This document shows positions 11,658 through 34,460 of a stretch of 64,000 nt of DNA, piece by piece. Source of the stretch: a bacterium (GTDB taxonomy: Bacteria; Zhuqueibacterota; Zhuqueibacteria; Residuimicrobiales; Krinioviventaceae); assembly GCA_963674595.2 (NCBI GenBank), contig CAXXFV010000003.1:32001-96000 (forward strand). The letters are read 5' to 3'. A program made the translations under genes and the position numbers. Positions within the stretch are counted from its first letter, which is position 1. Every line of letters starts with the position of its first letter. Under the pieces are notes generated by a model, which was not told where the DNA came from, ran no database searches, and was given only the letters and a program-made list of their open reading frames with translations.

Positions 11658-12718
11658 TCATTTTTTTTATTTAACGAAAATAATAGTAAAAAAACAATTA
11701 TTATTTAAATCAAATAACCAGGTATAAATAAAAAACGGACCAATGAGCGACAATGCACTATAATGAAGGCAGGGCCGGGTACTCCATATCCTTCGGTTAG
11801 TACGATGCGGTCAGAGGTCCGATAAAGTCTCAATCCCTCCATAGAAATCAAGTCTCTACTCATAATTTCCGATCTTAAAATGTCTCAATCTCAGCGGAGT
11901 GTAGCGACGTAAGGCCGCCTGCCATAGGGTATTGCTTTTGAAACATTGCAAAGTACCTCATAAAGAACAGCTCTTTTGAACCAGCCTCAAACGGCCCCTC
12001 CGTAGTAATTAGGTCTATTTCCACGGAGGATATGATTAATTTACTTAATCAAATAAATGGTTTTGTGTCTCAATCCCTCCGTGTTGATTAGGTCTATTTC
12101 CACAAAGCCGGACCGATGAGGCGCTTACTCGTGCCCAGAAGTCTGTCTCAATCCCTCCGTAATGATTAGGTCTATTTCCACAAAAGAATCAGGCAGTTTC
12201 TAAACGGTTTAAAGAAAGGTCTCAATCCCTCCGTAATGATTAGGTCTATCTCCACAGTGGTATAAATATTACTTTAGTAGCCCGATTTTTAGTCTCAATC
12301 CCTCCGTGGTGATTAGGTCTATTTCTACATTAATATTGATTTGAATGACAAACAGTACTGTTTTAAAGGTGTCTCAATCCCTCCGTGGTGATTAGGTCTA
12401 TTTCTACTCGAAGAAACAGACAAAAAGGCATTCGGTGAACAAACCAAGTCTCAATCCCTCCGTGTTGATTAGGTCTATTTCCACTATTGACGATTGCGAG
12501 TGGGTTTATTTTATCCATCGTGGCAATCCGTCTCAATCCCTCCGTGTTGATTAGGTCTATTTCCACGGATTGAAATGAAAATAATAGACAATCACGCTTG
12601 TGTCTCAATCCCTCCGTAATGATTAGGTCTATTTCCACAAATAAATATTAAGCTTGCTATATTTTAGTGGACACAAAGTTAAGCACTTTTTATATTATAA
12701 ACCAAAGGAGGTGTCCAC

Positions 12719-13015
12719 ATGACAAACAGAAGACGACGTTACACAAAAGAATTCAAAATAGAAGCTGTTCAGCTTGTACTTTCTAAAAGCAATGGTAATG
12801 CTTCAGAAGTTGCCAGAAATCTTGGTATTGAGCCTAACCTTCTCTCCAAGTGGGTTCGAGAATACAAAATTGATAAAGAACATTCCTTTCCAGGACTAGG
12901 GAACAGCAAAGAAAGTGATGAAATACAGAAACTGCGTAAAGAACTTGCAGACGTAAAACTGGAGCGGGATATATTAAAAAAAGCTGTGGCCATTTTCTCA
13001 AAACCGTCCCATTAA
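12719..13015 (+). CDS. IS3 transposase OrfA
   Basis: RRYTKEFKIEAV HTH; ERDILKKA end. Confidence 0.93.
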   Translation: MTNRRRRYTKEFKIEAVQLVLSKSNGNASEVARNLGIEPNLLSKWVREYKIDKEHSFPGLGNSKESDEIQKLRKELADVKLERDILKKAVAIFSKPSH

Positions 13016-13056
13016 AGTTTGGGTTTATCCAAAAGCATCAACAGGAATTCCCAATA

Positions 13057-13878
13057 GTGAAAATGTGCCAGGTTCTCAATGTCAGCCGGGGCGGGTTTTA
13101 TACCTGGAGCAAGCGACCAATGAGTCAACGAGAACTGGAAAACAAAAAGATACTTGAACGGATCAAACATATCCACAAGGAATCCAGAGGAAGCTATGGC
13201 AGTCCCAGAATAACACAAGAGTTACATAAGGAAAACTTGATTGTCAGCCGTCCGCGTGTTGCTCGTTTAATGAGAAAGAACAAAATTTGTGCAAAAACAA
13301 AACGTAAATTCAAAGTAACCACAAATAGTGATCACAGACTGCCAATATCACCAAATCTTTTACAACAGAATTTTACAGTCAATCAACCCAATAAAGTCTG
13401 GGTTTCTGATATTACATACATCCCGACTCGCAAAGGATGGTTGTACCTGACAGTGATCATTGATTTATACAATCGCCAGGTTGTCGGCTGGGCCATGAGT
13501 AACAACCTGCATGCTTCTTCAACAACAATCCCGGCCCTAAAACATGCATATCATCGTTTTCGTCCTTCAACAGATTTGATTTTTCATTCGGACCGTGGTG
13601 TTCAATATGCATGTAAAGAATTCAGAAAAATGTTAGCTCTTTTTCAAATGGTCCAAAGTATGTCCGGAAAAGGAAACTGCTACGACAACGCTGTTGCTGA
13701 AAGCTTTTTTGGTACTTTGAAAAAAGAACTGATTTATCATCATACTTATGAAACACGATTAATTGCGAAGCAATCAATATTTGAATATATTGAAATATTT
13801 TACAACCGAAAAAGAATTCATTCCTTTTTGGGCAATATGTCACCAGTACAATTCTTAAAATTTAATAAAGCAGCTTAA
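13057..13878 (+). CDS. IS3 transposase OrfB (DDE)
   Basis: WVSDITYI, HSDRGVQY, DNAVAESFF motifs. Confidence 0.95.
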   Translation: MKMCQVLNVSRGGFYTWSKRPMSQRELENKKILERIKHIHKESRGSYGSPRITQELHKENLIVSRPRVARLMRKNKICAKTKRKFKVTTNSDHRLPISPNLLQQNFTVNQPNKVWVSDITYIPTRKGWLYLTVIIDLYNRQVVGWAMSNNLHASSTTIPALKHAYHRFRPSTDLIFHSDRGVQYACKEFRKMLALFQMVQSMSGKGNCYDNAVAESFFGTLKKELIYHHTYETRLIAKQSIFEYIEIFYNRKRIHSFLGNMSPVQFLKFNKAA

Positions 13879-16800
13879 ACTTAACTAGGTGTCCATTTTT
13901 TTATTGCAATTTCATATTGCCATGCTCATAGAACATGCAGAAAGATAGTCTCAATCCCTCCGTAATGATTAGGTCTATTTCCACTTGAGTTTCATGATCA
14001 TGTGAAACGTAAAATCCCACTGTCTCAATCCCTCCGTAATGATTAGGTCTATTTCCACAAAGCTGAGCTTTGGTGATGCTGGTGGCATTGATGCAGTCTC
14101 AATCCCTCCGTAATGATTAGGTCTATTTCCACTAGAATAATTAGAATTGCGGTTTCACCCTTTTAAAATGTCTCAATCCCTCCGTAATGATTAGGTCTAT
14201 TTCCACGGGAATTGGATTAGAATTGTACCAAACTGAGTATTTTAGTCTCAATCCCTCCGTAATGATTAGGTCTATTTCCACTTCTTATGCCGGTGGAAAA
14301 GCAACAAAAATCACGGTTGAACAGTCTCAATCCCTCCGTAATGATTAGGTCTATTTCCACTCTTAATGGTGATGTTCGCACAAAATTGCACAAAATTGAA
14401 GTCTCAATCCCTCCGTAATGATTAGGTCTATTTCTACTCTCTTGTAACAGCACACAAAGAAATAAAATCAATTCTCACAAAGTCTCAATCCCTCCGTGGT
14501 GATTAGGTCTATTTCTACAAGAAATAAAAGAAAGTCGCGACGAATATCGCAAACTTTGTCTCAATCCCTCCGTGGTGATTAGGTCTATTTCTACATAGAC
14601 ATCTCAACATCAAAAGTGCAAGTAACTGCGTCTCAATCCCTCCGTGGTGATTAGGTCTATTTCTACTTGGAGCGGTAGCCTTGTGTTTTACAATGGCCGC
14701 TGGTCCAAAATGTCTCAATCCCTCCGTGGTGATTAGGTCTATTTCTACACCTCATAAAAATAGAGCTATTGACTCTACCATTACCAGTCTCAATCCCTCC
14801 GTGGTGATTAGGTCTATTTCTACATTTACTGCCGTGCAGTTTTCCTTCTTTTAAATCACTCAAAGTCTCAATCCCTCCGTGGTGATTAGGTCTATTTCTA
14901 CAACACCTTACCTCTAATATCATGTCTTGAAAGAAATTCCAGTCTCAATCCCTCCGTGGTGATTAGGTCTATTTCTACCTTAACTGTGAAAGAGTTGGCA
15001 CTAAGGATTCTAACTGTGAAAGAGTTGGCAAGAATGTCTCAATCCCTCCGTGGTGATTAGGTCTATTTCTACAAAAGTGGCGTGACGATTGGTATTTAAA
15101 CCTTAATAACGACGTCTCAATCCCTCCGTGGTGATTAGGTCTATTTCTACCGCACCGGAAATTTTGTATAAAATAGCTGCTATTCCGCAGTCTCAATCCC
15201 TCCGTGGTGATTAGGTCTATTTCTACCATTCGTACTGATTGCTGAAAAGTTATTTGGTTGGTCTGGGTCTCAATCCCTCCGTGGTGATTAGGTCTATTTC
15301 TACTCTTTTTATTGGCTATCGTTGCGTTGAATGGTTGCTGTCTCAATCCCTCCGTGGTGATTAGGTCTATTTCTACGTATTTAATACACGTCAATACAAA
15401 TACGGCGTTGATGACCGTAAAAAGTCTCAATCCCTCCGTGGTGATTAGGTCTATTTCTACCACAATCATAAATGTTTTGGAGCACAGAAAGAAATAAGTA
15501 TTGTCTCAATCCCTCCGTGGTGATTAGGTCTATTTCTACACCTTCAAGACCATCAAGCTTGGCACCCTGAAGGACGTTGCCGGTCTCAATCCCTCCGTGG
15601 TGATTAGGTCTATTTCTACACGATTGAAGTACTAACACTGTCATTGGTCCCAATACCGTCTCAATCCCTCCGTGGTGATTAGGTCTATTTCTACAAGATA
15701 AATTTTTTGATTCACTAAAATCAAGTAGCGTATGTCTCAATCCCTCCGTGGTGATTAGGTCTATTTCTACAAATTCAATATTAACTTGGGAATTAAGTTC
15801 TCAAAAGAAGTCTCAATCCCTCCGTGGTGATTAGGTCTATTTCTACTTTTTAATAAAATTGGAATTAGGTTGTGACAATTGGATGTCTCAATCCCTCCGT
15901 GGTGATTAGGTCTATTTCTACAAAACCAGATGGAACATCATATTACGCAATCAATTCTGATGTCTCAATCCCTCCGTGGTGATTAGGTCTATTTCTACCT
16001 AACGACGAAGCGCTAAGTGTTATCTTCCGGGAAGGATTGAGTCTCAATCCCTCCGTGGTGATTAGGTCTATTTCTACATGGCTTGATGCCAGGTTGTCCG
16101 TATGGGTTGACGAACAGATCGAAAAGTCTCAATCCCTCCGTGGTGATTAGGTCTATTTCTACCACATCGTCACTGTCCGTCTCAGCAGAATTGGCAATGT
16201 CTCAATCCCTCCGTGGTGATTAGGTCTATTTCTACGACTTTTGGTCAACACATGCGTTGATTAAAAGGAAAGTCTCAATCCCTCCGTGGTGATTAGGTCT
16301 ATTTCTACAGCTTTTCAGAAGTTTGGGATTTAGTTGCTCAAGTTAAAGTCTCAATCCCTCCGTGGTGATTAGGTCTATTTCTACAGGTATAATAAAGGGG
16401 AAGAGAAAGAACAAAAATTTGTCTCAATCCCTCCGTGGTGATTAGGTCTATTTCTACTGCCGATCTTGTTGATGCATTCAAGGCCAGAATGAAAGAGCGG
16501 TCTCAATCCCTCCGTGGTGATTAGGTCTATTTACCACTACTTAATATGAACAGCAAACTCTGGAAACAATCGCCAAAAAAAGTCTCAATCCCTCCGTGGT
16601 GATTAGGTCTATTTCTACTTAAAGCTTTGCCGGACCGTATTCGGTATGCAATGCTGTCTCAATCCCTCCGTGGTGATTAGGTCTATTTCTACTCTTTCTC
16701 AGGATTAAAAGCGTCTCTTTTCGGAGATGAGTCTCAATCCATCCGTGGTGATTAGGTCTATTTCTACCCATTTGCAATAGTGAATTTTGAACAAGATATT

Positions 16801-18132
16801 AAGCGTCTCAATCCCTCCGTGGTGATTAGGTCTATTTCTACATATTCGTTAAATCAATAATGGCTTTACCGGCTTTAAAGGTCTCAATCCCTCCGTGGTG
16901 ATTAGGTCTATTTCTACGATGAGCTGGAGGAATTGTTTCAGGATTATCAGCTCTGGTCTCAATCCCTCCGTGGTGATTAGGTCTATTTCTACAGGAAGAG
17001 ATAAGAATGATCCAACAAGCTTACGGGGACCTTGTGTCTCAATCCCTCCGTGGTGATTAGGTCTATTTCTACTTTCTGGTAAAGTTGAGTTTGAAAGTTC
17101 AGAGAATACTGTCTCAATCCCTCCGTGGTGATTAGGTCTATTTCTACATCTTTAAATAACAGTGTAAAGATCTCGACCGGCGGTCTCAATCCCTCCGTGG
17201 TGATTAGGTCTATTTCTACGCTGAAAAAGTTGATCGTCAACTTAAGCACAGATGATGTCTCAATCCCTCCGTGGTGATTAGGTCTATTTCTACAAATAAT
17301 ACGTCTTCTCAGACCCAGCAGACCATAACGTCTCAATCCCTCCGTGGTGATTAGGTCTATTTCTACAAAAATTTACGACTGTTCCCTGGTTGTAAAAAGA
17401 CGTCTCAATCCCTCCGTGGTGATTAGGTCTATTTCTACAAGGATGTACGAATACACCCAACTCAGAAACCTGTTGCGTCTCAATCCCTCCGTGGTGATTA
17501 GGTCTATTTCTACAAATTAAAGAAGCTCAGAACCAAATTCTGAATACTTTGTCTCAATCCCTCCGTGGTGATTAGGTCTATTTCTACGAACATTTACTAA
17601 AAGACCTTAATGAAGCCGGAAAGATAAAGATGTCTCAATCCCTCCGTGGTGATTAGGTCTATTTCTACATTGCGGGTCCAGCAAGAACTCGTCTTCTAAC
17701 AAAACCTTGTTGTAAGTCTCAATCCCTCCGTGGTGATTAGGTCTATTTCTACTGGAATGGTATGGTACAGGTGCTTGGAGTAAGGTAAATGTCTCAATCC
17801 CTCCGTGGTGATTAGGTCTATTTCTACTGGAAATAATATCGCCGAGGTATCCCGCAGACTACAAATAAGTCTCAATCCCTCCGTGGTGATTAGGTCTATT
17901 TCTACTCCAAAAAGAGATTCCCTCTTTCAAAAATTTCTTTGTCGTCTCAATCCCTCCGTGGTGATTAGGTCTATTTCTACATAATATATTGTGCTTCTGT
18001 CTTTTAGTGCTTATGGTGATGTCTCAATCCCTCCGTGGTGATTAGGTCTATTTCTACACATGCTACACAGATTTGGAACAGACATGCTCAGAACCGTCTC
18101 AATCCCTCCGTGGTGATTAGGTCTATTTCTAC

Positions 18133-18768: not shown

Positions 18769-19800
18769 TTAAAGTTTTAGAGGGGTATACATTGCATCAT
18801 GTTGGACTGTTTTGGCAAGTGCGGCAACCTGTGTTTGAAATTTTTTTCGGAATCCTGATTTTTCCGGGTGCATTGTATCGCTGTCAAATTGTCCAAGCAT
18901 TTGTTCGAATTGTTTGAAAAATACTTTCTTACCAGAAATGGATAAATAAACACCTCCGGTGGGTGGTTTATAAAAATCCTCTTCAGAAAGGGCATTGGTA
19001 TTAAAAAGATTTAATGCCAACCTGTCTATAAATCAATGACGGAATTCTTCCACAAGGTCTAAAGCCAAACTTGGTCGTCCATATTTTATTTGATGATAAA
19101 AGCCAAGATATGGATCAAATCCGATTCCATCCAGTAATGATTGCAACTCTGAAGATACAATAACATAGCCATAGGAGAGAACAGCATTTACCGGATCTTG
19201 TGGTGGTCTTTTTGTTCTGGCGTCAAAGTTCCACGGCGGTTTTATCATTTTGCTGAATAATTTAAAATAAAAAGCGCTGCCGCTACCCTCATATCCTCTC
19301 AGTTCATCCAAGTCTTTGGCATTTTCTGCTTTTGTTTTATAGTCTGAAAATTTTTGAACTTGCTGTGTGGTAAACAAACCCGGATGGTTTGCTAAATGTT
19401 TTTTTATGTTAATATATGCGCTGTTTAGTTTGGACGATACGATTTGTTTTGAAAAAGTGAGGCAAAAATCTGTTTGATGGAATTTTTCAAATTGAGCGAT
19501 TCTCAGTTCAATGTTCTTTTGTTTTGGAGGTGTTAATTGTCCTAATAATGTTCCTGTTAAGGTAAAAAAAGCAAGCTCAATGTTGTGGGTCAACAATTGA
19601 TGAATAGCCGGAGTTGTCACTTCAATATTCCCAAAAATCATGACCTGGTCTATATCAGCACACGGAAGATCCAGTTTTATATCATCCTGAGTGAGATGAG
19701 TTGTGGTGGTCTTTTTTGTTGACGGTTTTTTACATATAAGCAGCCGATCACCACTTTTTCGAAGTATCGTGTTTTGTTCAACAAGGTAAAGTGTAGCCAT
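18769..19800 (-). pseudogene. cas1: Cas1 with one in-frame TGA at 19033-19035
   Basis: LRGYEG, RPPQDPVNAVLSYGY, SLALDLVEEFRH*FIDRLALNLFN; the two ORFs are in the same frame. Confidence 0.9.
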
Positions 19801-20765
19801 TACAACTCCTGTTTATTTTTCAATTCCAGGTATTTTTTTAATGTCAATGGCGGCGGCAGTTTTACCGCATGTGCTCTGTTGCGTTTTTGGGGTTGAGGCA
19901 AATAAACGTCGTCAAATAAAAATATGGCACCCAGAAATTTAAATCCTTCATCAAAAGAGACGATTTTTGTTTTTAACGGATTCAGGTCAAGCTGTAAATC
20001 TTCCAGCAGCATATCTGTCAGTTCGACATTTTCAACAGCTTCTTTTTCAGTCTTTGACAGGATCAAAAAATCATCTGCATAACGTACCAGTTTGCGGTCA
20101 AAGCTTATCAAAATTTCATCCAGTTCATCCAGATACAGATTAGCCAAAATCGGGGAAACTACCGATCCCTGTGGAATGCCTTTTTCCAGCGTCCAAATTT
20201 TTTCACCATCGTAAACGTCTGCTTTAATCCATTTTATAAACAGGTCCGTCACTTTTTTTTCAAGAATGAGTTTGTGTAGTTTTTTAATGAGCTGGTTATG
20301 GGGAACATTGTCAAAATAAGCGTCAATGTCAGCGTCTACAGCATATCGAAAACCAAGGTCGCGCCAGTATTTAATATCCTTAATGGCGGTCTGCACGCTT
20401 CTATTAGGGCGATAGGCGTGAGAAATGGTTTCAAATTCTTTTTCAAAGATATCGCGCGTAGCTAAATAAACCGCAGCCTGGGCAATTCTATCCCGTACAG
20501 AGGGAACTGACAAATAGCGAAAGCTGTTGGAACTTTTCTTTGCAATGGCAAACCGCAATAGCGGGTAGGGGTGATATGTTTGTTGTTTCAAGTCGGTTTG
20601 CAGGGATTGCAGGTTTGTTTCACAACGATATTCAAATCGATTAATTGTTACGCCGTCACTGCCCCTACAGCCTTTGTTTTCACGGACACGGGTAAAGGCA
20701 AGGGAAAGAGCGTTAGAGGAGTGGATCACGTTAAATATCTCATTATTCATTGATAATCGTTCCAA
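19800..20765 (-). CDS. CRISPR-associated group II intron-like reverse transcriptase
   Basis: GIPQGSVVSPILANLYL and RYADD motifs; no maturase X domain seen; stop overlaps the cas1 start (TAATG). Confidence 0.93.
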   Translation of the reverse strand: MERLSMNNEIFNVIHSSNALSLAFTRVRENKGCRGSDGVTINRFEYRCETNLQSLQTDLKQQTYHPYPLLRFAIAKKSSNSFRYLSVPSVRDRIAQAAVYLATRDIFEKEFETISHAYRPNRSVQTAIKDIKYWRDLGFRYAVDADIDAYFDNVPHNQLIKKLHKLILEKKVTDLFIKWIKADVYDGEKIWTLEKGIPQGSVVSPILANLYLDELDEILISFDRKLVRYADDFLILSKTEKEAVENVELTDMLLEDLQLDLNPLKTKIVSFDEGFKFLGAIFLFDDVYLPQPQKRNRAHAVKLPPPLTLKKYLELKNKQEL

Positions 20766-20767
20766 CT

Positions 20768-21694
20768 TTATGTTATATCTAAATTATTTTCCTTGATGAA
20801 TTCTTTAGCTTCAGTACAAAGTTGATCCGCAGAAACATACATAATTTTTTGGTCCTTATTGCGAAATCCATTATAAAGAACATCTGGAATTGGCAATGTA
20901 TCTTTGCGGATCATATAAATTTTTGTTTGGATATCTCTACTAATACCTTCGAGATTTATAGTGTCTATTTTCTGTTCAAGGGCATCATCCCAAGTTTTGC
21001 GTAAATGAACTTTTAAAAATTCTTGATCATTTGCAGCATTGCGTTGAGAAAAAAACTGAATTATTCCCCAAATATATGCTGGAACAACCGGCACTAACCA
21101 GGAAAACACAAAAGACGGAACATCTGTTTTTAATAATGAAGCAATAATGAAAATGCCTATACCTAATATTATAAGCCCCCAAAGTAGAATACTAGCGAAG
21201 CGACGACGAAGACTGCTATCCCAAAAGAGATTTGCTCTTTGACATATAAGCCGGGAATAAGCTAATGACAAACAATCTGTATTTTCAAAGTACCAATTCA
21301 ATAACTTTTCTTTGTTTTGAGGTTTTCTCAAATGCTTGTTTGCTTTCGCGATATAATCTTCACTTTCAGGTTTGGCCTGGCAAACAACATCATTCCACTT
21401 GAGCTGTAACACACGTGTATCAAACAGTTCTTGAATTTTAGCAGCTCTATTTCTAAAACTGTTTTCTTTTTTTAATATAATTACCTCAAAAAGCGTTATA
21501 ATTACACCCCATATTGACGCAAATGTTTCCAATGGACTAATAACTTTTCCTAATATAAATACAAGTATAGTAAGAGGCACAACAAGAACAAACAAATACC
21601 ACTGAATCATTTTACCCTCAGAGTATAATTGCCGTTGAGCAGCTAACAAAATAATATTTTTCTCTTCGTTTTGTGCTTCAAAAATTGTTTTCAT
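20768..21694 (-). CDS. S-4TM (SMODS-associated 4TM) pore-forming effector
   Basis: IFEAQNE..LLAAQRQLYS, AAKIQELFD..V..L.WN, NWY, CQRANLFWDSSLRR motifs; two TM pairs. Confidence 0.8.
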   Translation of the reverse strand: MKTIFEAQNEEKNIILLAAQRQLYSEGKMIQWYLFVLVVPLTILVFILGKVISPLETFASIWGVIITLFEVIILKKENSFRNRAAKIQELFDTRVLQLKWNDVVCQAKPESEDYIAKANKHLRKPQNKEKLLNWYFENTDCLSLAYSRLICQRANLFWDSSLRRRFASILLWGLIILGIGIFIIASLLKTDVPSFVFSWLVPVVPAYIWGIIQFFSQRNAANDQEFLKVHLRKTWDDALEQKIDTINLEGISRDIQTKIYMIRKDTLPIPDVLYNGFRNKDQKIMYVSADQLCTEAKEFIKENNLDIT

Positions 21695-21716
21695 ATGTCA
21701 CTCCTGCGTAAATAAT

Positions 21717-23360
21717 TTAGATTGCTTGTTCATATGTGCGGCTATTTATTGTTGAAAAGCTATTTGATTTTTCTCTGTAAACTTGAAAATGTAATGCTTT
21801 TCTAATATTTTCATTAAAAAGTTTTAAAGCAATTTCTTTTCCTTGTTCGTCATCAATAAATAATATATCATTAGATTGGTTATATTCTTGTAACATCTCA
21901 TTATTCATTACTCGTTTCAAGTCTTTTTCTTTAATCGTAGGTAAGAATGAGGCAGGAACGCACTCCGCCAGACTTAAAGCTTTTGTTATATCCTTGTTAT
22001 ACTCTCTATTGTTAACAGAATTGGGTAAAAGTTTTTTCAAACTTTGACTTGTATAGATAGTCTCTTTTTGTAATTTCCTAAACTCTGAAATTACATCGCC
22101 ATTGATTTCTTCTTCCTCCATCGCATGCAGAACATCCTCCGTTATTTTATGCCCGGAAGCAAACAATGGATATGTAAATAAGTGTTTCAGGTCAGAGTCA
22201 TACCATAAAATTTTTGAAATAGAGTTTAAACTTGGATAGTGCAATAAATCACTAAATGTATTTGGGTGTTTATGTAATACTAGGTTATATATTTCATCTA
22301 TATTGATTGAATATTGTGCTGGTGGTGCAGTATCAAATGGATCACTGTTTTTTATTACAATAGTGTTTATGGAAAACTCAATGGAACCATAGCCGTAAGA
22401 CTTGCCATTTCCAATTTTATGACGAAGCCTTTTACCCGGAATGAGTGAAAATACGAAAAAATCCAATATACTCTTGGGGATATCTGAAAAGTAAATTCGG
22501 AAAGGAAGACTTTGTGCCCCTGCTTTTAAGCACTCTATACTGTAAAAATAAAGTGGCCGTTCCAAATCTTTCGGCCAATTATTAGAATTGCCATACCAAC
22601 TTGTGCATTTTTTATGATCTTGATGAAAATAGAATTTTCTCCCCCGATAACCTGAACCAATAAATTTAGGTAGCCAATCCTTTTGAATTTTATATGCTTT
22701 TTGATACCACCAGCTTGAAGCACTTGGATGAGCCCCTCCCATGAATGCGGAATTATTGATATCCGGCAACAGGTAAGAATCATTATTGAATTCAATGTTA
22801 TTGGATGCGATATTAGCATCCTCAATAGCAATTCGTCCTCTAAAAGTACTACCATTCGTCCCAGATATAGCCCCAAATAAAAAAGATGCAATATCAAATC
22901 TTTCTATTTTCTCAGGAAAAGTTATTTTCTCAGGTAATGAATATGGAATGCTACTATCAACACTGACAATATCATTATTGAGTTTTAATTCTTTTATTGA
23001 ATTAACTACTTGGAATCCTATTGCATGCTTTTTCTTCTCCTTTTTGTAATAAGGACTTACCTGTGAAACCCACCCATTTGTTATGGCTTCAATAAACGAT
23101 CTTAATAAGCCTGAAATTGAAGTGCCTGGTATTTGATTTAAACCATTATTTTTATAAAAATAGCTTTTTTCTATTTTTTCCCCTTTTGAATTAACTTTTT
23201 GATGGCCACAAATATGTACAGGGGACAATGCTTGAATTTGAACATCCATATAACCAGTTAAAAGGTTATCATCGTAATCAAGCCATTCATCCATTGTTTT
23301 AAGTATAGGATCTTCATCAGCAAAAGGAACAAAATCAAATGGATTCATGTTATGTGCCAT
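21717..23360 (-). CDS. Cas7-group RAMP with insertion (TIGR03986-like)
   Basis: NPFDFVP, IPGTSISGLLRS, RGRKFYFHQ, IGNGKSYGYGS. Confidence 0.85.
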   Translation of the reverse strand: MAHNMNPFDFVPFADEDPILKTMDEWLDYDDNLLTGYMDVQIQALSPVHICGHQKVNSKGEKIEKSYFYKNNGLNQIPGTSISGLLRSFIEAITNGWVSQVSPYYKKEKKKHAIGFQVVNSIKELKLNNDIVSVDSSIPYSLPEKITFPEKIERFDIASFLFGAISGTNGSTFRGRIAIEDANIASNNIEFNNDSYLLPDINNSAFMGGAHPSASSWWYQKAYKIQKDWLPKFIGSGYRGRKFYFHQDHKKCTSWYGNSNNWPKDLERPLYFYSIECLKAGAQSLPFRIYFSDIPKSILDFFVFSLIPGKRLRHKIGNGKSYGYGSIEFSINTIVIKNSDPFDTAPPAQYSINIDEIYNLVLHKHPNTFSDLLHYPSLNSISKILWYDSDLKHLFTYPLFASGHKITEDVLHAMEEEEINGDVISEFRKLQKETIYTSQSLKKLLPNSVNNREYNKDITKALSLAECVPASFLPTIKEKDLKRVMNNEMLQEYNQSNDILFIDDEQGKEIALKLFNENIRKALHFQVYREKSNSFSTINSRTYEQAI

Positions 23361-23362
23361 AA

Positions 23363-24406
23363 TTATGCTCCTTTCGTTTGTGTTAATTTTGATAAATCTA
23401 TACCCAGCATCGGTTCTATTTTATTAAATTTACAACCAGACCATATCCCTGCCAAATGATCCAAATCTGATAAAATATCTTTTTGTGATTCCCATAAAAT
23501 ATCTTCATGTAAAGCTGACTTTTGGGATATATACAAGCCATAAATCTCCTTTTCAACCGAAAGTTCGCCCTTGCCATGCTGAGTAAGAGCACCAAATCTT
23601 ATCATTCCATTATTTATATTATTTTTCCACAAGTTTAAAAGTTTAATATCGAATAATGTAGGATTTAGAATGTGGAGTTTCAAAGTTAACTCTTGTTTCG
23701 CACACATTTCCACCCAGGAATGTAATCCTTTAGCTTTAGCTCCCTGTGTTACTCTATCAATTGGATTTCTAATCCCAATTTCGGTGTTAACATTTCGAGG
23801 TCCATTTTTGATATCGACATTTTTTCCTGAATATTGCATTGTGCTGTTGTCTTTTTGATTTTCAATTTTTGTTTCTACTCTTAAACGACCTGCCCACGTA
23901 TAATCGGCTGGTTCCTCGCTATTTATTTCAAATGTATTTCCAAAAAGAGAAAGAATATCGAACCAATAACTTTTTCTTGTATTTAATATTTGCTTTACAT
24001 CAGATATTTTTTTTTCAATCTCTTCAAGTGTCAACTTACTGTCCTGCTTATTGGGTAAATCAAATAGATTTCTTTCCTTTATATTAACCAGGAAATTAAT
24101 TGCTGCGTTTCTTAAACAGCCTCTAATGCTGCTTGCTGGAATTGAATATGAAGGAATTATATTATCATTATCCAGTAGAAATTCATAATTAAAATCAGAT
24201 GTTTTGGAAAAATTACTATTTACATTATCTGAAAGATTGGGCACTTCCCAATTAAACTCTAAATTTGTACCTCTTCCTTTAGTTGTATCACTTTGCTTAA
24301 ATGAAGATACATAGCCATTGCGAACCACGAGAGGAGTTTTTGTTAGACAAAGCCATTGTGTATATAAAACTCCCAGAACACCTTTTTCATATGGAATATA
24401 TGTCAT
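23363..24406 (-). CDS. Cas7-group RAMP (Csm3-like)
   Basis: IPASSIRGCLR, PIDRVTQGA, FGALTQHGKG. Confidence 0.8.
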   Translation of the reverse strand: MTYIPYEKGVLGVLYTQWLCLTKTPLVVRNGYVSSFKQSDTTKGRGTNLEFNWEVPNLSDNVNSNFSKTSDFNYEFLLDNDNIIPSYSIPASSIRGCLRNAAINFLVNIKERNLFDLPNKQDSKLTLEEIEKKISDVKQILNTRKSYWFDILSLFGNTFEINSEEPADYTWAGRLRVETKIENQKDNSTMQYSGKNVDIKNGPRNVNTEIGIRNPIDRVTQGAKAKGLHSWVEMCAKQELTLKLHILNPTLFDIKLLNLWKNNINNGMIRFGALTQHGKGELSVEKEIYGLYISQKSALHEDILWESQKDILSDLDHLAGIWSGCKFNKIEPMLGIDLSKLTQTKGA

Positions 24407-24417
24407 AGCAAATACTC

Positions 24418-25311
24418 CTATAAGCTTTTAATAAAGGTAGTTTTAAACTTTTTTATCAAGTTAATTTGATCTTCTTTTTTCATCCCTAATCCTAACATAA
24501 TTTGATAACCTGCATCTGTTTTTTCTGAAGCCAAACTGAGCCATTGTTTGATATTATCTTTATTAAGGCGATAAAGTCCATCAAGTTCAAATTTCATCCT
24601 ACCAAATCCTCTTCCTATCATTGCTCCAATTGAAAGAGGATAAATAGGTGAATTAAATCCCTCAAGTCCAAGAAGAAGAAAACCCATTTCTTCGTCGCTC
24701 AAATTTCGCCCAATAATTGTTAACTTATATTTTTGACCTACCGGAGCAACATCAAAAGAATACAGTTTGTTTGCTGCTGCTGCTCCTGTTAGCGGGTCAA
24801 TAGCGACAGATCTGAACACGTAGCTTTGCAGATCGTGATTCCAACCTTTTTCAGCAAATTTTGGAGAATCAATTTGTATGGTGGATGGGGCATCCCAAAA
24901 CTCAACTTTGCTTTCACAGAAAGGGGTACCAAATACCTGTTCTAACAGACTCGCTTCTGTTTGTATATATTCTTTTTGATCATCTTGGTTCATTTCTCGA
25001 AATTTACTTTCCTTATCAAATTCCGGTTCGGATGCAATGTTTTTATCGAATGAACTAAAAAGAGAATACAAATAATGACGAACGACTCCCCTCAATGCAC
25101 TACCTGGTAAATATGGAAGGCATCGATAGTCCCGTTCAATTTCAGCAATTTCAGGAGTATCCTCATCAGTTTCGTCTATTTTTAACATCTCATCCTTTCG
25201 TACTTGTCCGGTGCCTATGTGTAATGGCGATATTGATGTCAATGTTGCTTCGATGCGATACAAGTTTTCAAGTGTATCACCTTTAAACCAATATTTATTT
25301 TCTGCTTCCAT
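24418..25311 (-). CDS. Cas7-group RAMP (Csx7/Csm3-like)
   Basis: SPLHIGTG, PYLPGSALRGVVR, VAIDPLTGAA, IGAMIGRGFG. Confidence 0.88.
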   Translation of the reverse strand: MEAENKYWFKGDTLENLYRIEATLTSISPLHIGTGQVRKDEMLKIDETDEDTPEIAEIERDYRCLPYLPGSALRGVVRHYLYSLFSSFDKNIASEPEFDKESKFREMNQDDQKEYIQTEASLLEQVFGTPFCESKVEFWDAPSTIQIDSPKFAEKGWNHDLQSYVFRSVAIDPLTGAAAANKLYSFDVAPVGQKYKLTIIGRNLSDEEMGFLLLGLEGFNSPIYPLSIGAMIGRGFGRMKFELDGLYRLNKDNIKQWLSLASEKTDAGYQIMLGLGMKKEDQINLIKKFKTTFIKSL

Positions 25312-25313
25312 TA

Positions 25314-27143
25314 TTATTTCTCCTGTTCTGCATTAAATCTTTTTGTCCAGTGCCAATTAAGATTTATAGAAATTTCCCCATAACCATTTTCGGCTACAAA
25401 GGGGCATACTTTCCAGCTATCACCATCTGAGATACCAAGATTTTCTACTTCAGAAGCAATGTCTATTGGCAGAGGAAGTCCATCAATTTTTAGCCGTGAT
25501 AGCTGAGTATTTGCCAGATCATTATCATATGCTTTTAGTACAAAGACACTACCGGCTTCCGTTAACACCCAAGGATAATATCTATTATTATGCAATTGTT
25601 TATACTGATGTCCAAAATATCCACCTACCATCTTTTGTCGTGCAAAAAAATTGACAAGATACATATTTCCATTAGTCGCTTCACTCCAATATTTGTTATA
25701 TAGTTCGCGGAGATTTTCGAGATTCGATTGTTTAAACGCATGAAACAGCAATGCATCACTTTGAAGTACAACGACTGCATGATCATCAATTATTGTCTCG
25801 GAACGTTCTTTAATAGCAGAGGTTGCCAATCCTTGATTTATTTTAAAATCAAAACGTGAATCCCTCTTGCCAAGATATTTCCAAGCCTGCTGTATTGCGT
25901 CAAATAGTTCAGAGGCAGTCTCTCTAGTATTATTTTTGGGAAAAATAATATTTGAAATCCATATGATCCTTTTTTTGTTTGCTTTAGTTCCAGAGTAATT
26001 ACAATAAGGCGAGATATATTGGAAGGTGTATAATTGATTTTCAGATGCTGTCCTTGATTTTATATCGATGCTAGTTCTTGTTTTATTAATAGTAATACAA
26101 TCTTCCCAACCAAATTCTTTTTCAATATACTCAGATCCCTTCCAATCGATTCTAAAGGTAGGTGCCTTTTTTGTCGTGTGATCCAGGGCAAATTTATTGA
26201 CATGAGCAACATCTTTGTATTCTTTGTTATCGCTGTAAACAGTTGACATTGGAATAAACACCGGCCGTTTTGTCTCATCACCAGAAGGAAAAGCATTAGT
26301 AAAACGAATTTTGGAAAAATTTGTTGCTAGATTGGGAAATTGGCTATAAACATTCTTGTTTTCATTATTTATATCTTCATTCAATTCCGCACCACAGAGG
26401 TCATTTATAGCACGGGCAACAGAACCTTTTAATACCGATCCTGAGATTATTTTTACTGATTCTCGATAATTAGATGAATTTACCTTTCCCCCAACAAACA
26501 AATCATCTATCATTCGAATTGTTAAATGATATTCTCGTGTTGTGTTTGTTATTGCTATTTCTGTTTTTTGTTTGTTTGGATTCAATTGTACATCAATTTT
26601 TGTTAATCGTCCAAAACCACATCCTTTCATGCTTCCAAAACCGCCTATCCACTTTAATCCTACCTTCAAAGATTCAGCAATAGATGATGCTTCTTTATCA
26701 TTTTCTGCCCAAAACTGAATGCAACCTTTCCAGGCAGAAGTAGATCCAGAAACAAACAAATTTTCATTTATTTGGAGAAATTTATCTCTAGCTGTTCCAG
26801 TCTTTCTATCTATAGAATTTCTTGTTGACGGCTTTAACTTTTGGATGTTAGTTTCCATTAAATCAAAATCACTAAAAAATAATTTGCCCTTTCCTGTGTC
26901 AAAAGCTTCTTGCATTTTTTTTCCAAACCATCCATCTATTGTGAAGTTATTTAAATTCACTAATTTTTCTAAATCATGAAACGAATCTCGTAATTTTCCT
27001 TTTACATGAGAACCTTTTAATGCTATTAAACCATCAGATTTACGATAAAAGATACTATCAAGACCCATAGTATTGGTCGTACCCTTACTTAAAATTGGAC
27101 CTTTTAGATATAAAATTATATTAAACGAAAAAAACTTTCTCAT
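25314..27143 (-). CDS. Cas7-Cas5 fused RAMP (Csx10-like)
   Basis: N-terminal GSHVKGKLR..GGFGSMKGCGFG; C-terminal ISGSVLKG, AGSVF, ENGYGE. Confidence 0.8.
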   Translation of the reverse strand: MRKFFSFNIILYLKGPILSKGTTNTMGLDSIFYRKSDGLIALKGSHVKGKLRDSFHDLEKLVNLNNFTIDGWFGKKMQEAFDTGKGKLFFSDFDLMETNIQKLKPSTRNSIDRKTGTARDKFLQINENLFVSGSTSAWKGCIQFWAENDKEASSIAESLKVGLKWIGGFGSMKGCGFGRLTKIDVQLNPNKQKTEIAITNTTREYHLTIRMIDDLFVGGKVNSSNYRESVKIISGSVLKGSVARAINDLCGAELNEDINNENKNVYSQFPNLATNFSKIRFTNAFPSGDETKRPVFIPMSTVYSDNKEYKDVAHVNKFALDHTTKKAPTFRIDWKGSEYIEKEFGWEDCITINKTRTSIDIKSRTASENQLYTFQYISPYCNYSGTKANKKRIIWISNIIFPKNNTRETASELFDAIQQAWKYLGKRDSRFDFKINQGLATSAIKERSETIIDDHAVVVLQSDALLFHAFKQSNLENLRELYNKYWSEATNGNMYLVNFFARQKMVGGYFGHQYKQLHNNRYYPWVLTEAGSVFVLKAYDNDLANTQLSRLKIDGLPLPIDIASEVENLGISDGDSWKVCPFVAENGYGEISINLNWHWTKRFNAEQEK

Positions 27144-28615
27144 AATATCCCTCCAGAATAATCCAAAAGATTATAGGCCAGTAACCAACGATTGTAATTA
27201 TCAATAATTAATTGATCTATAGCATTTTTTAAAATTTCTTTAGTTTTTGCATTCATTCTCTTATATATGCTGTTGAGAATATCATCTATTTTTTCTGGTT
27301 GGCCATTTTTAATTGTATGGAGAATTGCGTACAATTTATTTCTCGGTAAATATTTGTCAATTACTTGCAAATTTGACATTAGCCCGCCAAAATTACCTGC
27401 TTCAATTACCATTGTTTCGGGTGGTATTGGTTTATAATAGTTATTCAAAAATTCTAATATATCACCGCTAATCATATCTATTGAAGTCATATTCAAGATT
27501 GCAATTTTATTAGAATGTTCATCAATTTGTTCAACATCTTGCGGTATATCAAATTTCGCAAGTTCGCATAATCTGTGCACATATTCCCGGACTTGGAGTA
27601 TTGGAAGGTTGTGGGGGCAAAATATTACTCCAGCTGTATGCGTTACGTGCAAATCATTGAAAAAGATTTTATTACTCATGCTGTTAAAAATACTTTGAAG
27701 TACATTAAATCCTTGCCAGGCTGGCACAATTAATTCCAACTCATCGCCTCCCCAAAGTAGTATCTCAGCTCTTATTTGATTTTTAGTACTAGTTTGTAAT
27801 AAAAATGATTTATTTTCAGGTTTTTGGGCAAATCTAACAACATTTTCTATAGCTGGAACACGTAAATCTTGTTGAATTTTGCTTTGGAATTCTTGATAAT
27901 CTTTTTCCGTATTGCAGACTTTATCTCGCAACTTCCCAAATCTATTGCCATCAATATATATAAATGCCATTTTACCATCAAGCCTACCAGCAGCAGCATC
28001 TTTAGTTAATGATTCCAAATCATTTGTGAAAGGATAATCAATATTTATTAAACTGGGATTAAGTAAATTAGGAGTATTTGATAATCGCAATATCAAATTT
28101 TTACGAAGTATTCTCCCGTTGTCTTGCCTTACCTTCACGGCCTGTGAACGTCTAATATCTTCGTTCCCCTTTTTAATAGGATCTACAAAGGGTCTTACTC
28201 CGTCGAATTCACAAAAGTTGTCTCTGTTTTTTTCCTCGGGTAGTTTGAAAGAAGGAGATTGATATTGTTGCCAACGGCATTCTGCCATTAACTCTTGTAG
28301 CTGTTCCTGAAAGAGTTTATCAGGCGATATTTTTTGCATAGAATGTACAATAGTAGCAAAAGGGATTTTGGATTCTACTTGAGCTAAAATATCATCACAA
28401 ACCTGCTTGGCTTCTTTTTCATTTGGCACCTCCATACGCAATAATGCAACACTTGCTGTTGATCCCAAATCTTTAATTTTAGCTTTTTTATGTGTGATTT
28501 CATAGAATGCATCATGCTGCATAAAACTACCACCACGTATAGTCGATATATCATATGTGTCATAAATGGTAAAATCAAGATTAACAGCTTCAATTCTTAA
28601 ATGATAACTCGCCAT
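27140..28615 (-). CDS. cas10: Compact Cas10, no HD domain, palm motif GGDE
   Basis: IRGGS, C..DG.RP, YIDGNRFG, WGGDE motifs. Confidence 0.85.
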   Translation of the reverse strand: MASYHLRIEAVNLDFTIYDTYDISTIRGGSFMQHDAFYEITHKKAKIKDLGSTASVALLRMEVPNEKEAKQVCDDILAQVESKIPFATIVHSMQKISPDKLFQEQLQELMAECRWQQYQSPSFKLPEEKNRDNFCEFDGVRPFVDPIKKGNEDIRRSQAVKVRQDNGRILRKNLILRLSNTPNLLNPSLINIDYPFTNDLESLTKDAAAGRLDGKMAFIYIDGNRFGKLRDKVCNTEKDYQEFQSKIQQDLRVPAIENVVRFAQKPENKSFLLQTSTKNQIRAEILLWGGDELELIVPAWQGFNVLQSIFNSMSNKIFFNDLHVTHTAGVIFCPHNLPILQVREYVHRLCELAKFDIPQDVEQIDEHSNKIAILNMTSIDMISGDILEFLNNYYKPIPPETMVIEAGNFGGLMSNLQVIDKYLPRNKLYAILHTIKNGQPEKIDDILNSIYKRMNAKTKEILKNAIDQLIIDNYNRWLLAYNLLDYSGGIL

Positions 28616-28653
28616 AAAATCCTCCCGTTTAATTCAAATTTTCGAAAAAAAAA

Positions 28654-33353: not shown

Positions 33354-34460
33354 GTGGAAATAGACCTAATCATTACGGAGGGATTGAGACACTCAAAAAA
33401 TCAAGGTCAAGATGACAAGAATTATCAAAGTGGAAATAGACCTAATCATTACGGAGGGATTGAGACGATTTAAAAAATCATAAAAATCATTAAAAGGCTG
33501 TACTGAGTGGAAATAGACCTAATCATTACGGAGGGATTGAGACATGACCATCAAAATTGACAGACTTTAGAACTTCGTTCGCCGTGGAAATAGACCTAAT
33601 CATTACGGAGGGATTGAGACACAAAAATTATTTGCAAATAAAACTCTATTATTGTATGAGTGGAAATAGACCTAATCATTACGGAGGGATTGAGACTTTT
33701 CTGGATTATTGTTTGCTATGGCCAAATGAGAAGGTGGAAATAGACCTAATCATTACGGAGGGATTGAGACTAACAATCCATATGTAAATACGCTAGCCAG
33801 TTGTTTGATCGTGGAAATAGACCTAATCATTACGGAGGGATTGAGACGTCAACTGTAAAAGCCTGACAAAACACAACATCCACATCGTGGAAATAGACCT
33901 AATCATTACGGAGGGATTGAGACTCACTCGGCACCGGTTTAAACGGGGCAACGTCAGACCAGTGGAAATAGACCTAATCATTACGGAGGGATTGAGACCG
34001 TATTGTGTTATTACATTAGTGGGAAAGTTGGCTGAGTACTTGTGGAAATAGACCTAATCATTACGGAGGGATTGAGACTACTGATAAATTTAATGCGGCT
34101 AGTGCTAATATTTCTATGGCGTGGAAATAGACCTAATCATTACGGAGGGATTGAGACTTTTTAATATCACATTCTTTTTTATAAGCAAGTAAAAGATGTG
34201 GAAATAGACCTAATCATTACGGAGGGATTGAGACATAACGGTAATGATAATCAGAAGTAAAATTGAACAAAAAGTAGAAATAGACCTAATCACCACGGAG
34301 GGGCCGTTTGAGGCGTGTTCAGTAGAACAGTTCCTTATGTTTTGTTGCGAAATGTTTTAGAAAAAATCCCCGAAGGCAGGCGGCCTTGCGTCGCTACGCT
34401 CCGCTTAGATTGAGACAGTGAAAACATGAAAAGGCCTAATTACCACGGAACGATTGAGAC
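33354..34460 (+). CRISPR. CRISPR array 2 (GTGGAAATAGACCTAATCATTACGGAGGGATTGAGAC)
   Basis: 12 intact repeats, a split repeat at 34274-34416 and a degenerate repeat ending at 34460. Confidence 0.97.

What the first reader, a model, noticed from the sequence alone, without database searches (positions are those of the whole stretch)
11882..12024. 106-nt structured insert at the Cas6 cut position of a repeat, present in both arrays
Seen: the next-to-last repeat of each array is split as ...ACGGAGG[106 nt]GATTGAGAC (11891-11996 on minus, 34302-34407 on plus). Length and site are identical, the ends are conserved (GGCCGTTTGAGGC...GGCAGGCGGCCTTRCGTCGCTACRCTCCGCTKA) and the interior has diverged. GGGCCGTTTG pairs with CAGGCGGCCT, repeat-derived CGGAG pairs with insert CTCCG, and an inner arm covaries (GGTTC-AAAA-GAGCT vs TGTTC-AGTA-GAACA). 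A shared G allows the junction to fall exactly before the 8-nt ATTGAGAC tag, where Cas6 normally cuts (established). No clear target duplication. Inference: an array-encoded ncRNA released by Cas6, a repeat-targeting mini-element, or an RNA captured by the adjacent RT.
Basis: partly seen in the sequence, partly recalled or inferred. Interest (0 to 1): 0.78.

Follow-up and report, generated by a model that had tools for sequence, protein, structure and literature searches.

The report
Insert splitting the last CRISPR repeat
A 106-base stretch sits inside the last full repeat of every CRISPR array of one repeat family in this bacterium, exactly between the part that the Cas6 enzyme reads and the 8-base tag that guide RNAs keep; it is real and found nowhere else, but whether it is a working RNA or an inherited scar stays open.

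Summary
The 106-nt block lies between ...ACGGAGG and GATTGAGAC in both window arrays. It also lies in two further loci of the same genome, a 3-spacer array and a spacer-less solitary unit. So 4 of 4 arrays of this repeat family carry it, always in the last repeat with an intact 5' part (4 of 83 repeat 5' parts). Two truncated copies exist; none lies outside arrays. It matches no Rfam family. I found no homolog in 124 other genomes of the class or in exact-pattern scans of three public collections. Contigs of three other public runs do hold it, once as a tandem pair. Its ends are conserved (8 of 40 columns vary) and its interior drifts (33 of 66). The proposed helices can form in all copies. 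However, fold energies equal those of shuffles and covariation is not significant, so "structured" is unproven. Relatives (3 of 7 readable trailers) carry other long, tandem elements at array trailers. Best reading (0.4): a single old insertion between the Cas6-read part and the tag, inherited with the trailer and cut off by Cas6 as a tag-less by-product. Rivals: a working ncRNA, or the scar or mini-derivative of a repeat-integrating element. Prophages here carry a repeat-like unit fused to a structured RNA.

The parts
11997..12024 (-). 5' 28 nt of the split repeat, array A
11891..11996 (-). 106-nt insert, copy A
11882..11890 (-). GATTGAGAC: last 9 nt of the split repeat (G plus the 8-nt tag)
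11860..11881 (-). 22-nt spacer-like stretch, shared with the truncated copy at C3:112.9k
11827..11859 (-). Degenerate terminal repeat of array A. Its 5' part has diverged, its tag is intact, and it folds on itself.
11730..11826 (-). RNA2: a closed long-stem element ending in a U run. Five copies in the genome; three of them sit behind a repeat-like unit with its own promoter-like hexamers, and two of those three lie upstream of a portal gene.
11827..18132 (-). Array A (64 matches to the repeat 5' part), interrupted by an IS3-family element at about 12648-13918
33354..34460 (+). Array B: 12 intact repeats, the split repeat and a degenerate terminal repeat
34274..34301 (+). 5' 28 nt of the split repeat, array B
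34302..34407 (+). 106-nt insert, copy B
34408..34416 (+). GATTGAGAC of the split repeat
34417..34427 (+). 11-nt spacer-like stretch, identical in the solitary C9 unit
34428..34460 (+). Degenerate terminal repeat of array B
34440..35147 (-). First 229 codons of a 467-aa phage portal gene, fused to the outer end of the terminal repeat. The same junction occurs at three loci.
19033..29622 (-). Type III-D-like operon: cas6, a cas10-like gene, four RAMP genes, an S_4TM effector gene, a group-II-intron-like RT and cas1. cas2 lies at 18342-18623.

Best explanation
The block is lineage-specific DNA found only in arrays. It entered one trailer-end repeat of an ancestral array once. The entry point lies exactly between the part of the repeat that precedes the Cas6 cut (nt 1-29, kept intact because the block starts with G) and the 8-nt tag.

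Since then it has travelled with the trailer whenever arrays were duplicated, recombined or unit-duplicated by unequal crossing-over between repeats. It has not spread by transposition.

It is transcribed as part of the pre-crRNA. Cas6 most likely cuts at its 5' border as at any repeat, and perhaps again at the degenerate repeat behind it. The block would then leave the transcript as a long by-product without a 5' tag. The tag behind it is never exposed at a 5' end, which keeps the trailing pseudo-unit out of the type III effector.

Its termini are held by pairing with each other and with the repeat's CGGAG, or by processing constraints. Its interior drifts.

Shown: existence, site, orientation, copy distribution, conservation pattern. 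Inferred: the single origin, the Cas6 cut, and exclusion from the effector.
For: Distribution in the genome:
- 4 of 4 arrays of the family carry it, each time in the trailer-most repeat with an intact 5' part. That is 4 of 83 repeat 5' parts.
- No copy lies outside arrays: BLAST, nhmmer and a covariance model find only the 4 full and 2 truncated copies.

Signs of inheritance with flanks:
- Copies share their trailer flanks. B and C9 share the 11-nt stretch, the degenerate repeat and the portal fragment (93.8% identity over 837 nt). A and C3:112.9k share the 22-nt stretch, the degenerate repeat and RNA2.
- The region upstream of array B is a decayed copy of cas2 plus the leader of array A (88% identity). 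Arrays have therefore been duplicated here.
- Tandem units occur: a second, cut copy behind the first in C29, and a go-back joint of 116 nt in a contig of run X3.

The site:
- The repeat nt 1-29 are unchanged upstream of the block.

Background from the literature and relatives:
- Trailer repeats are known to decay and terminal spacers to persist (PMC12839519, abstract and passages).
- 3 of 7 relatives with a readable trailer have other long tandem elements there, one containing a genome-wide REP hairpin.
- Fold energies equal those of shuffles.
Against: - The ends are much better kept than the interior: 8 of 40 against 33 of 66 variable columns, Fisher p = 0.002. This asks for selection or gene conversion, not plain decay.
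- Between B and C9 the interior differs at 25 of 66 sites, but the third codon positions of the adjacent portal fragment differ at only 39 of 236. Either the copies are older than their flanks or the interior evolves fast.
- No indel occurs among the four genomic copies. One 1-nt deletion is seen in run X5.
- The helices are intact in all copies.
- Array-restricted elements recur in relatives: G098, 11 of 11 hits inside arrays. This may point to a function.
- No RNA data exist, and the Cas6 cut is inferred from general Cas6 knowledge that I recall and did not test.
Confidence: 0.4

Rival explanations
1. A working non-coding RNA encoded in the array trailer. It would be freed by Cas6 cuts on both sides and act in trans, for example by titrating Cas6, regulating cas genes or stabilising the 3' end of the pre-crRNA. 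Its conserved 3' block would be a binding site.
For: - Conserved 5' 9 nt and 3' 28 nt against a drifting interior (5 of 37 against 36 of 69 variable columns, p = 0.0001).
- All proposed helices can form in 4 of 4 copies, with one compensatory pair in the hairpin.
- No indels among the four copies.
- The block is flanked by an intact Cas6-read part and a degenerate repeat.
- It is kept in three other public runs.
- Relatives have array-restricted elements in like positions.
- There is a possible shared 5' motif with the G029 element (16 of 18 nt; p < 0.002 for copy A and 0.004-0.012 for copy B).
Against: - Z-scores are near 0.
- Covariation is not above shuffles (144 of 500).
- No Rfam match.
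- No homolog in 124 other genomes of the class with the covariance model, nor in three collections by exact pattern.
- The motif match fails for copies C9 and C29, and the covariance model does not see G029.
- No promoter or terminator consensus inside the block.
- No complementarity to the repeat, leader or RNA2 above shuffles.
Confidence: 0.25
2. The scar or miniature derivative of an element that integrates site-specifically into this CRISPR repeat, in the way the PhiAP1.1 prophage integrates into S. pyogenes repeats. The conserved termini would be the recombinase-binding ends. It might still be movable in trans.
For: - Same site and orientation in all copies, conserved ends, and no target duplication beyond 1 nt.
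- Prophage DNA abuts array trailers. A portal fragment is fused to the outer end of a terminal repeat at 3 loci. A prophage module lies behind array A.
- The truncated copy at C3:112.9k lies 3 kb from a tyrosine integrase gene, next to a prophage.
- Precedent: prophages integrate into CRISPR repeats and are mostly seen in the terminal repeat (bioRxiv 10.1101/2020.10.09.333658, abstract and section 5).
Against: - No full-length element with these ends exists in the genome.
- 0 of 79 other repeat 5' parts carry it.
- No att-like direct repeat at the integrase segment.
- No terminal inverted repeats.
- Copies share flanks, as expected from duplication.
- The C29 partial copy is cut by an unrelated dispersed repeat, not by cargo.
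Confidence: 0.2
3. A module of phage origin recombined into the arrays: a decoy or anti-CRISPR RNA of the solitary-repeat kind that ended up at the trailers through repeat homology.
For: - Three further loci in this genome carry a repeat-like unit with promoter-like hexamers upstream, fused to RNA2 and a terminator. Two of them lie upstream of a portal gene (C10, C9), and C10 is annotated as phage head genes.
- The trailer of array A holds the same RNA2.
- The C9 copy is a solitary unit without spacers, next to phage DNA.
- Solitary repeat units of viruses are described as RNA anti-CRISPRs (PMC10651486, abstract and passages).
Against: - The block itself is never found in the native phage copies C10, C9-right and C25.
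- It lies inside arrays that have leaders and spacers.
- No relatives in the viral collection.
Confidence: 0.1
4. A cellular or phage RNA that the neighbouring RT and Cas1 ligated and copied into a repeat by mistake.
For: A group-II-intron-like RT and Cas1 are encoded beside array A. RT-Cas1 systems take spacers from RNA (search listing and abstracts only).
Against: - No source gene in the genome.
- The site is not a repeat border, which is where integration takes place (recalled, not tested).
- The length is three times that of a spacer.
Confidence: 0.03

Closest known systems
Decayed terminal repeats and conserved trailer ends of CRISPR arrays
   Same: It sits at the leader-distal end, where repeats accumulate changes and old units persist (PMC12839519, abstract and passages). 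It is followed by a degenerate last repeat.
   Different: It is not point decay. It is a 106-nt block at one exact site, the repeat halves are otherwise intact, its own ends are conserved, and it is present in all four arrays. That paper's main text does not use the word insertion (0 occurrences).
Prophage integration into CRISPR repeats (PhiAP1.1 of S. pyogenes)
   Same: A foreign sequence splits a repeat at a fixed site, mostly in the terminal repeat. Phage DNA lies beside the arrays here too.
   Different: Only 106 nt, with no genes. No integrase-bearing full-length form with these ends was found. This is a type III system, not type II-A.
Viral solitary repeat units / RNA anti-CRISPRs (Racr)
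   Same: A repeat-derived RNA that Cas6 could bind and cut. The C9 copy stands alone without spacers. The phage-borne repeat-like unit plus RNA2 has promoter-like hexamers directly upstream.
   Different: The block lies inside host arrays and is not itself repeat-like. Cas6 binding was not tested. The described Racr was studied in a type I-F system (PMC10651486, passages).
MITE / REP / IS insertions in arrays
   Same: Short, non-coding, conserved ends and variable middle. A relative (G029) has a genome-wide REP hairpin in its trailer units. IS3 copies sit in two arrays here.
   Different: 0 copies outside arrays, no terminal inverted repeats, no target duplication, no parent element.
crRNA-like regulatory RNAs (CreA/CreR, crlRNA)
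   Same: A degenerate repeat pair around a very short spacer-like stretch (11-22 nt) follows the block.
   Different: These are known from DNA-binding type I and V systems (recalled; bioRxiv 10.1101/2024.12.27.630466 seen as search listing and abstract only). No target could be sought meaningfully with 11-22 nt. The block has no counterpart there.

Membership tests
Generic dispersed repeat (REP/MITE) | Many copies at unrelated, mostly intergenic sites | tested here: not met
   BLAST, nhmmer and the covariance model find 4 full and 2 truncated copies, all at array trailers; nothing else convincing in 6.6 Mb
Generic dispersed repeat (REP/MITE) | Terminal inverted repeats and target-site duplication | tested here: not met
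   The sequence shows no terminal inverted repeats. The only inverted pair is insert 1-9 with 76-84, which is subterminal on the 3' side. The only shared flank letter is one G.
Site-specific integrative element in a CRISPR repeat (PhiAP1.1-like) | Repeat split at a fixed core, the two halves flanking the element | tested here: met
   Same split (28 nt | block | 9 nt) in 4 of 4 copies
Site-specific integrative element in a CRISPR repeat (PhiAP1.1-like) | Full-length form with a recombinase gene between the same ends | tested here: not met
   No such form in the own genome. An integrase lies 3 kb from a truncated copy, but no matching left end or att repeat was found.
Site-specific integrative element in a CRISPR repeat (PhiAP1.1-like) | Insertion polymorphism among repeats or strains | tested here: inconclusive
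   0 of 79 other repeat 5' parts are filled. Contigs of other runs show the filled form only, once in tandem. No empty allele of the same unit could be looked for.
Structured ncRNA family (Rfam or new) | Match to a curated family | tested here: not met
   0 matches at gathering score in the window and in six loci. The best E-value near the block is 0.95, for a CRISPR repeat model.
Structured ncRNA family (Rfam or new) | Fold more stable than shuffles, and covariation | tested here: not met
   Z-scores run from -1.47 to +0.47. Covariation is reached by 144 of 500 shuffles, with one compensatory pair. Only four sequences, so power is low.
Viral solitary repeat unit / Racr | Repeat-like unit in a virus or other mobile element, outside arrays, with a promoter directly upstream | tested here: not met
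   For the block: it lies in arrays with leaders and spacers. For the separate phage unit before RNA2: met at 3 loci by sequence (hexamers read by eye, not scanned), with phage context.
Viral solitary repeat unit / Racr | Binding and cutting by Cas6, and inhibition of interference | not testable with these tools
   Needs biochemistry or genetics
IS200/IS605-type miniature element (PATE) | Subterminal hairpins, insertion 3' of a fixed short target without duplication, a cognate Y1 transposase, several copies | tested here: inconclusive
   No duplication, and small hairpins near both ends (insert 15-28 and 78-94) fit. The two hairpins are unlike each other. No full-length partner and no copy at other sites with the short target. 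The family features are recalled.

The most novel reading that the evidence does not exclude
Arrays of these RT-linked type III-D-like systems may encode, at their trailers, a class of long RNAs bounded by Cas6 sites and deliberately deprived of a proper 5' tag. The 106-nt block here would be one member. The array-restricted elements in G098 (91 and 207 nt), the about 190-nt units in G010 and the 88-113-nt units in G029 would be others. They would act as built-in Cas6 or effector decoys or regulators, for instance to buffer against the phage-borne repeat-plus-RNA2 units found in the same genome.
Probability: 0.18. Interest if true: 0.8.

Novelty: new variant of a known kind. Interest (0 to 1): 0.5.

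Why it matters
If the block is only an inherited insertion, it still marks how array trailers evolve. They act as a protected place where foreign pieces persist, are duplicated with the flanking repeats and are passed on when arrays are copied. It also shows that an insertion placed between the Cas6-read part and the tag is tolerated.

If it is a working RNA, it would be a new product of CRISPR arrays besides crRNAs, in a system with a reverse transcriptase. It would give a direct handle, by Cas6 cleavage assay and small RNA-seq, on what array trailers do.

The side finding matters for the search for RNA anti-CRISPRs against type III systems. Prophages carry a repeat-like unit fused to a structured RNA. 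The same RNA sits at an array trailer, and portal fragments are fused to terminal repeats.

Tried and rejected
Searches for homologs that found nothing real
- The exact 21-letter pattern of the 3' block gave 3 stretches in genome contigs and 6 in metagenome contigs. None has a repeat context or a matching 5' end, so I read them as chance.
- Two patterns in viral contigs gave 0 and 5 chance stretches.
- BLAST of the block in 18 other genomes of the family: 0 matches.
- The repeat pattern in 42 other genomes of the order: 0 matches.
- The covariance model in 124 other genomes of the class gave 1 hit, which lies inside a glycosyltransferase gene.
- nhmmer on 40 loci of relatives: best E = 0.28.
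- The covariance model on 9 further loci: best E = 2.4.
- The portal protein in viral contigs: no relative.

Ideas dropped
- Coding. Frame 0 is open through the split repeat in copy A only; B, C9 and C29 have stops. tblastn of all frames (stops read as X) gave no consistent hit.
- A weak nhmmer hit in a histidine-kinase gene (E = 0.015) was not borne out.
- Diversity-generating retroelement. By my reading of the alignment, the changes are not tied to A positions and no copy has A at all variable columns. I ran no count.
- Leader relic. No similarity to the leaders.
- Promoter or terminator inside the block: 0 consensus sites.
- Pairing with RNA2, the repeat-like unit, the repeat or the leader: not above shuffles.
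- Self-targeting. 143 spacers gave no off-array match longer than 22 nt; one internal duplication of ten spacers turned up.
- An apparent coincidence of breakpoints. The C29 partial copy seemed to end at about position 63 and the C3 partial copy to start at 61. This dissolved: the C29 copy is cut earlier by a dispersed repeat of about 150 nt.
- No att-like repeat at the integrase segment.

RNA evidence
- No RNA holder was listed among the sequencing runs. The laid runs are contigs only.

Tools and papers
- No paper describing a conserved insert between the Cas6-read part and the tag came up in searches. Supplementary files were not opened and may hold array catalogues that bear on this.
Full report
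**What is there**

The window holds a type III-D-like CRISPR-Cas operon on the minus strand (19033-29622). It encodes Cas6, a Cas10-like protein, four RAMP proteins, an S_4TM effector, a group-II-intron-like reverse transcriptase and Cas1. cas2 lies at 18342-18623.

Array A follows on the same strand. It has 64 matches to the repeat's 5' part (window 11997-18132) and is interrupted by an IS3-family element.

Array B (33354-34460, plus strand) lies behind an IS21 element. Upstream of it is a decayed copy of cas2 plus leader, 88% identical to the region upstream of array A.

The repeat is 37 nt long and ends in the tag ATTGAGAC.

**The observation**

The two stretches align without a gap.

The block begins with G. 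The 29 nt that precede the cut position in a normal repeat are therefore unchanged upstream of it. The junction can equally be placed directly before the tag.

**Copies in the genome**

The genome of the window (6.6 Mb, 37 contigs) has two more full copies at the same site and in the same orientation:
- One closes a 3-spacer array on contig C29.
- One, on C9, has no spacers before it. It consists of the repeat 5' part, the block, the tag, the same 11-nt stretch and the same degenerate repeat as in array B.

Of 83 matches to the repeat 5' part, only these four are followed by the block.

A profile of the four copies finds two truncated ones:
- Positions 61-105, before a tag, on C3 at about 112.9k.
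- A second copy directly behind the first in C29. It is cut after about 35-45 nt by a dispersed repeat of about 150 nt with at least 17 copies.

No copy lies outside array trailers. A second repeat family in the genome, with the same tag, has normal trailers without the block.

**Elsewhere**

No Rfam family matches.

Searches of other genomes and collections found nothing real:
- The block is not found in 18 other genomes of the family.
- The repeat is not found in 42 other genomes of the order.
- A covariance model finds only one coding-region hit in 124 other genomes of the class.
- Exact-pattern scans of three public collections give only chance-like hits.

Near-identical DNA does occur in contigs of public runs from three further studies:
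- In run X3, one contig covers 10827-12018 with 20 differences and one gap. It shows a go-back joint of 116 nt with 34 letters between. I read this as two block-bearing repeats in tandem.
- In run X5, one contig covers 10748-11998 with 72 differences and 6 gaps, among them a 1-nt deletion inside the block. Upstream it runs into a diverged repeat 5' part.
- Run X4 holds the repeat 5' part and two thirds of the block.

The block is thus kept in a shallow lineage and nothing deeper is in reach.

**Is it structured?**

They are the repeat's own UAAUC/GAUUG, the repeat's CGGAG with the block's CUCCG, block 1-9 with 76-84, and a 5-bp hairpin at 15-28. Together, 95.8% of cells pair, against 35-52% when partners are slid.

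The evidence for a real structure is weak:
- Most pairs never vary.
- Only one pair changes on both sides.
- 144 of 500 shuffles reach the observed covariation.
- Fold energies are those of shuffled sequence, with z from -1.47 to +0.47.
- A competing 3' hairpin (block 78-94) is predicted as well.

"Structured" is therefore possible but not shown.

The conservation pattern is clear. The ends (1-9 and 76-106) vary in 8 of 40 columns and the interior in 33 of 66 (p = 0.002). Between copies B and C9 the interior differs at 25 of 66 sites. The third codon positions of the adjacent portal fragment differ at 39 of 236, and the ends of the block at 3 of 40.

**Surroundings**

The trailers are entangled with prophages.

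The 235-aa ORF behind array B is the first 229 codons of a 467-aa portal gene. It is fused to the outer end of the terminal repeat. The same junction occurs at three loci.

Behind the degenerate last repeat of array A lies RNA2, a long closed stem of about 95 nt ending in a U run (z = -2.67 together with that repeat). RNA2 has five copies.
- Three of them (C10, C9, C25) sit behind a repeat-like unit. I read hexamers resembling a -35 and a -10 box directly upstream in the output, but did not scan for them.
- Two of these three (C10, C9) lie upstream of a portal gene.
- Only C10 is annotated as a phage head module: portal and head morphogenesis genes follow.

This is the layout described for viral solitary repeat units that act as RNA anti-CRISPRs (PMC10651486, abstract and passages). 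It is a lead of its own.

The truncated copy on C3 abuts a 3.9-kb segment with a tyrosine integrase gene, followed by a prophage shared with C10.

Prophage integration into CRISPR repeats, seen mostly in the terminal repeat, is known from S. pyogenes (bioRxiv 10.1101/2020.10.09.333658, abstract and section 5).

**Relatives**

48 of 125 genomes of the class, the own one included, have a Cas6 relative; the best is 53% identical.

I fetched its neighbourhood in 26 genomes. A crude repeat finder saw arrays in 11 of them, and 7 have a trailer end inside the fetched stretch.

Three of these 7 carry long elements in tandem between truncated or tag-mutated repeats at the trailer:
- G098 has a 91-nt and a 207-nt form in both arrays. 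All 11 genome hits lie inside the arrays.
- G010 has five units of about 190 nt. Related copies lie before a cas-adjacent mini-array and near cas6, plus three short matches elsewhere.
- G029 has three units of 88-113 nt. The 3' half is a genome-wide REP hairpin (36 partial hits on five other contigs). The 5' half occurs only in the array.

These elements start 0-8 nt behind the expected Cas6 cut and end at a repeat that keeps the cut site.

None is detectably homologous to the block. The one exception is a 16-of-18-nt match between block positions 3-20 and the G029 5' half. It is significant for copies A and B but not for C9 and C29.

Normal trailers were seen in G119, G079, G051 and G019, and in one array of G010.

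**Reading**

The distribution fits one old insertion that is inherited with the trailer and sometimes unit-duplicated. The points in favour are: always the trailer-most unit, flanks shared between copies, duplicated arrays, tandem units, and no copy elsewhere.

The site matters for what the RNA does. Everything upstream of the Cas6 cut is intact, so Cas6 should cut at the 5' border of the block. The tag behind it is then buried behind 105 nt. The pseudo-unit that follows (tag, 11-22 nt, degenerate repeat) should not mature into an effector-loaded crRNA. This step rests on general Cas6 knowledge that I recall and did not test.

The well-kept ends and the recurrence of array-restricted trailer elements in relatives keep a functional RNA in play. 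The fixed site, the conserved ends and the phage neighbourhood keep a repeat-integrating element in play.

I put the inherited-insertion reading at 0.4, a working RNA at 0.25, a scar or mini-derivative of an integrating element at 0.2, a phage-derived decoy at 0.1 and RT capture at 0.03.

**Novelty and score**

Decay of terminal repeats and prophage or IS insertion into arrays are known. A conserved, array-restricted block placed between the Cas6-read part and the tag in every array of a family did not come up in five literature searches. Supplements were not seen.

I rate it a new variant of a known kind, with interest 0.5. It is a real and odd feature with a testable mechanism, but it has shallow conservation and no expression data.

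Noticed in passing
window 11730-11826 (-); L101:2761-2901 (-); L002:497-632 (+); L102:2055-2196 (+); L013:1337-1467 (-): RNA2: a closed long-stem element of about 95 nt with a U run, in five copies. At three loci (C10, C9, C25) it follows a solitary repeat-like unit with promoter-like hexamers upstream (read by eye). At C10 and C9 it lies upstream of a portal gene. It is a candidate type III RNA anti-CRISPR or phage sRNA. The same RNA closes array A.
   Followed up: partly
window 34440-35147 (-); also C9:148891-149595 and C3:111903-112607: The first 229 codons of a 467-aa portal gene are fused to the outer end of a terminal repeat. The identical junction occurs at three loci. Full-length copies lie at C3:10218.. 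and C10:44948...
   Followed up: partly
C3:108300-111925 (outside the window): A hybrid array. Repeats of a second family with the same 8-nt tag end in one terminal repeat of the first family. Inside this array a block of ten spacers is duplicated (108726-109433 = 110136-110843).
   Followed up: partly
window 12648-13918; C3:100135-101398: Two of five near-identical IS3-family copies sit inside CRISPR arrays, one in each repeat family.
   Followed up: no
window 4221-10491 and 45779-52058: A prophage module of 6.3 kb (SSB, exonuclease, helicase loader, regulators) is repeated on both sides of the CRISPR-Cas locus at 93% identity. Further copies lie on C9, C5, C10 and C3.
   Followed up: partly
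window 32698-33353: A decayed copy of cas2 plus leader upstream of array B, 88% identical to 18137-18789. No open cas2 frame of 50 aa or more is left.
   Followed up: partly
window 53071-62760 (+): A second type III-D-like gene set (Csx10-like, TIGR03986-family RAMP). The 731-aa RAMP protein (59622-61817) starts with a cold-shock-like domain by NCBIfam.
   Followed up: no
window 20768-21694 (-): An S_4TM (SMODS-associated 4TM) effector gene sits between the RAMP genes and the RT inside the type III operon.
   Followed up: no
L080 (G098:C12:215900-235899): Palindromic 91-nt and 207-nt elements lie between truncated repeats, in tandem at both array trailers, plus one internal pair. All 11 genome hits lie inside the arrays. 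A RAYT-like transposase with other REP arrays lies between the two arrays (read from a translation by eye).
   Followed up: partly
L098 500-2000 and L079 4076-4262 (G010): Five tandem units of about 190 nt follow repeats cut after GGGATTG, at the trailer of one array. A related 187-nt copy precedes a small cas-adjacent array, and a 57-nt piece lies near cas6.
   Followed up: partly
L119 3546-4010 (G029): Three trailer units of 88-113 nt lie behind repeats with a mutated tag. The 3' half is a genome-wide REP hairpin. The 5' half occurs only in the array and shares 16 of 18 nt with the start of the block.
   Followed up: partly
L130 85-265 (C29:107885-108065): A dispersed repeat of about 150 nt with at least 17 copies (C13, C29, C26) cuts the second block copy of the C29 array.
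   Followed up: no
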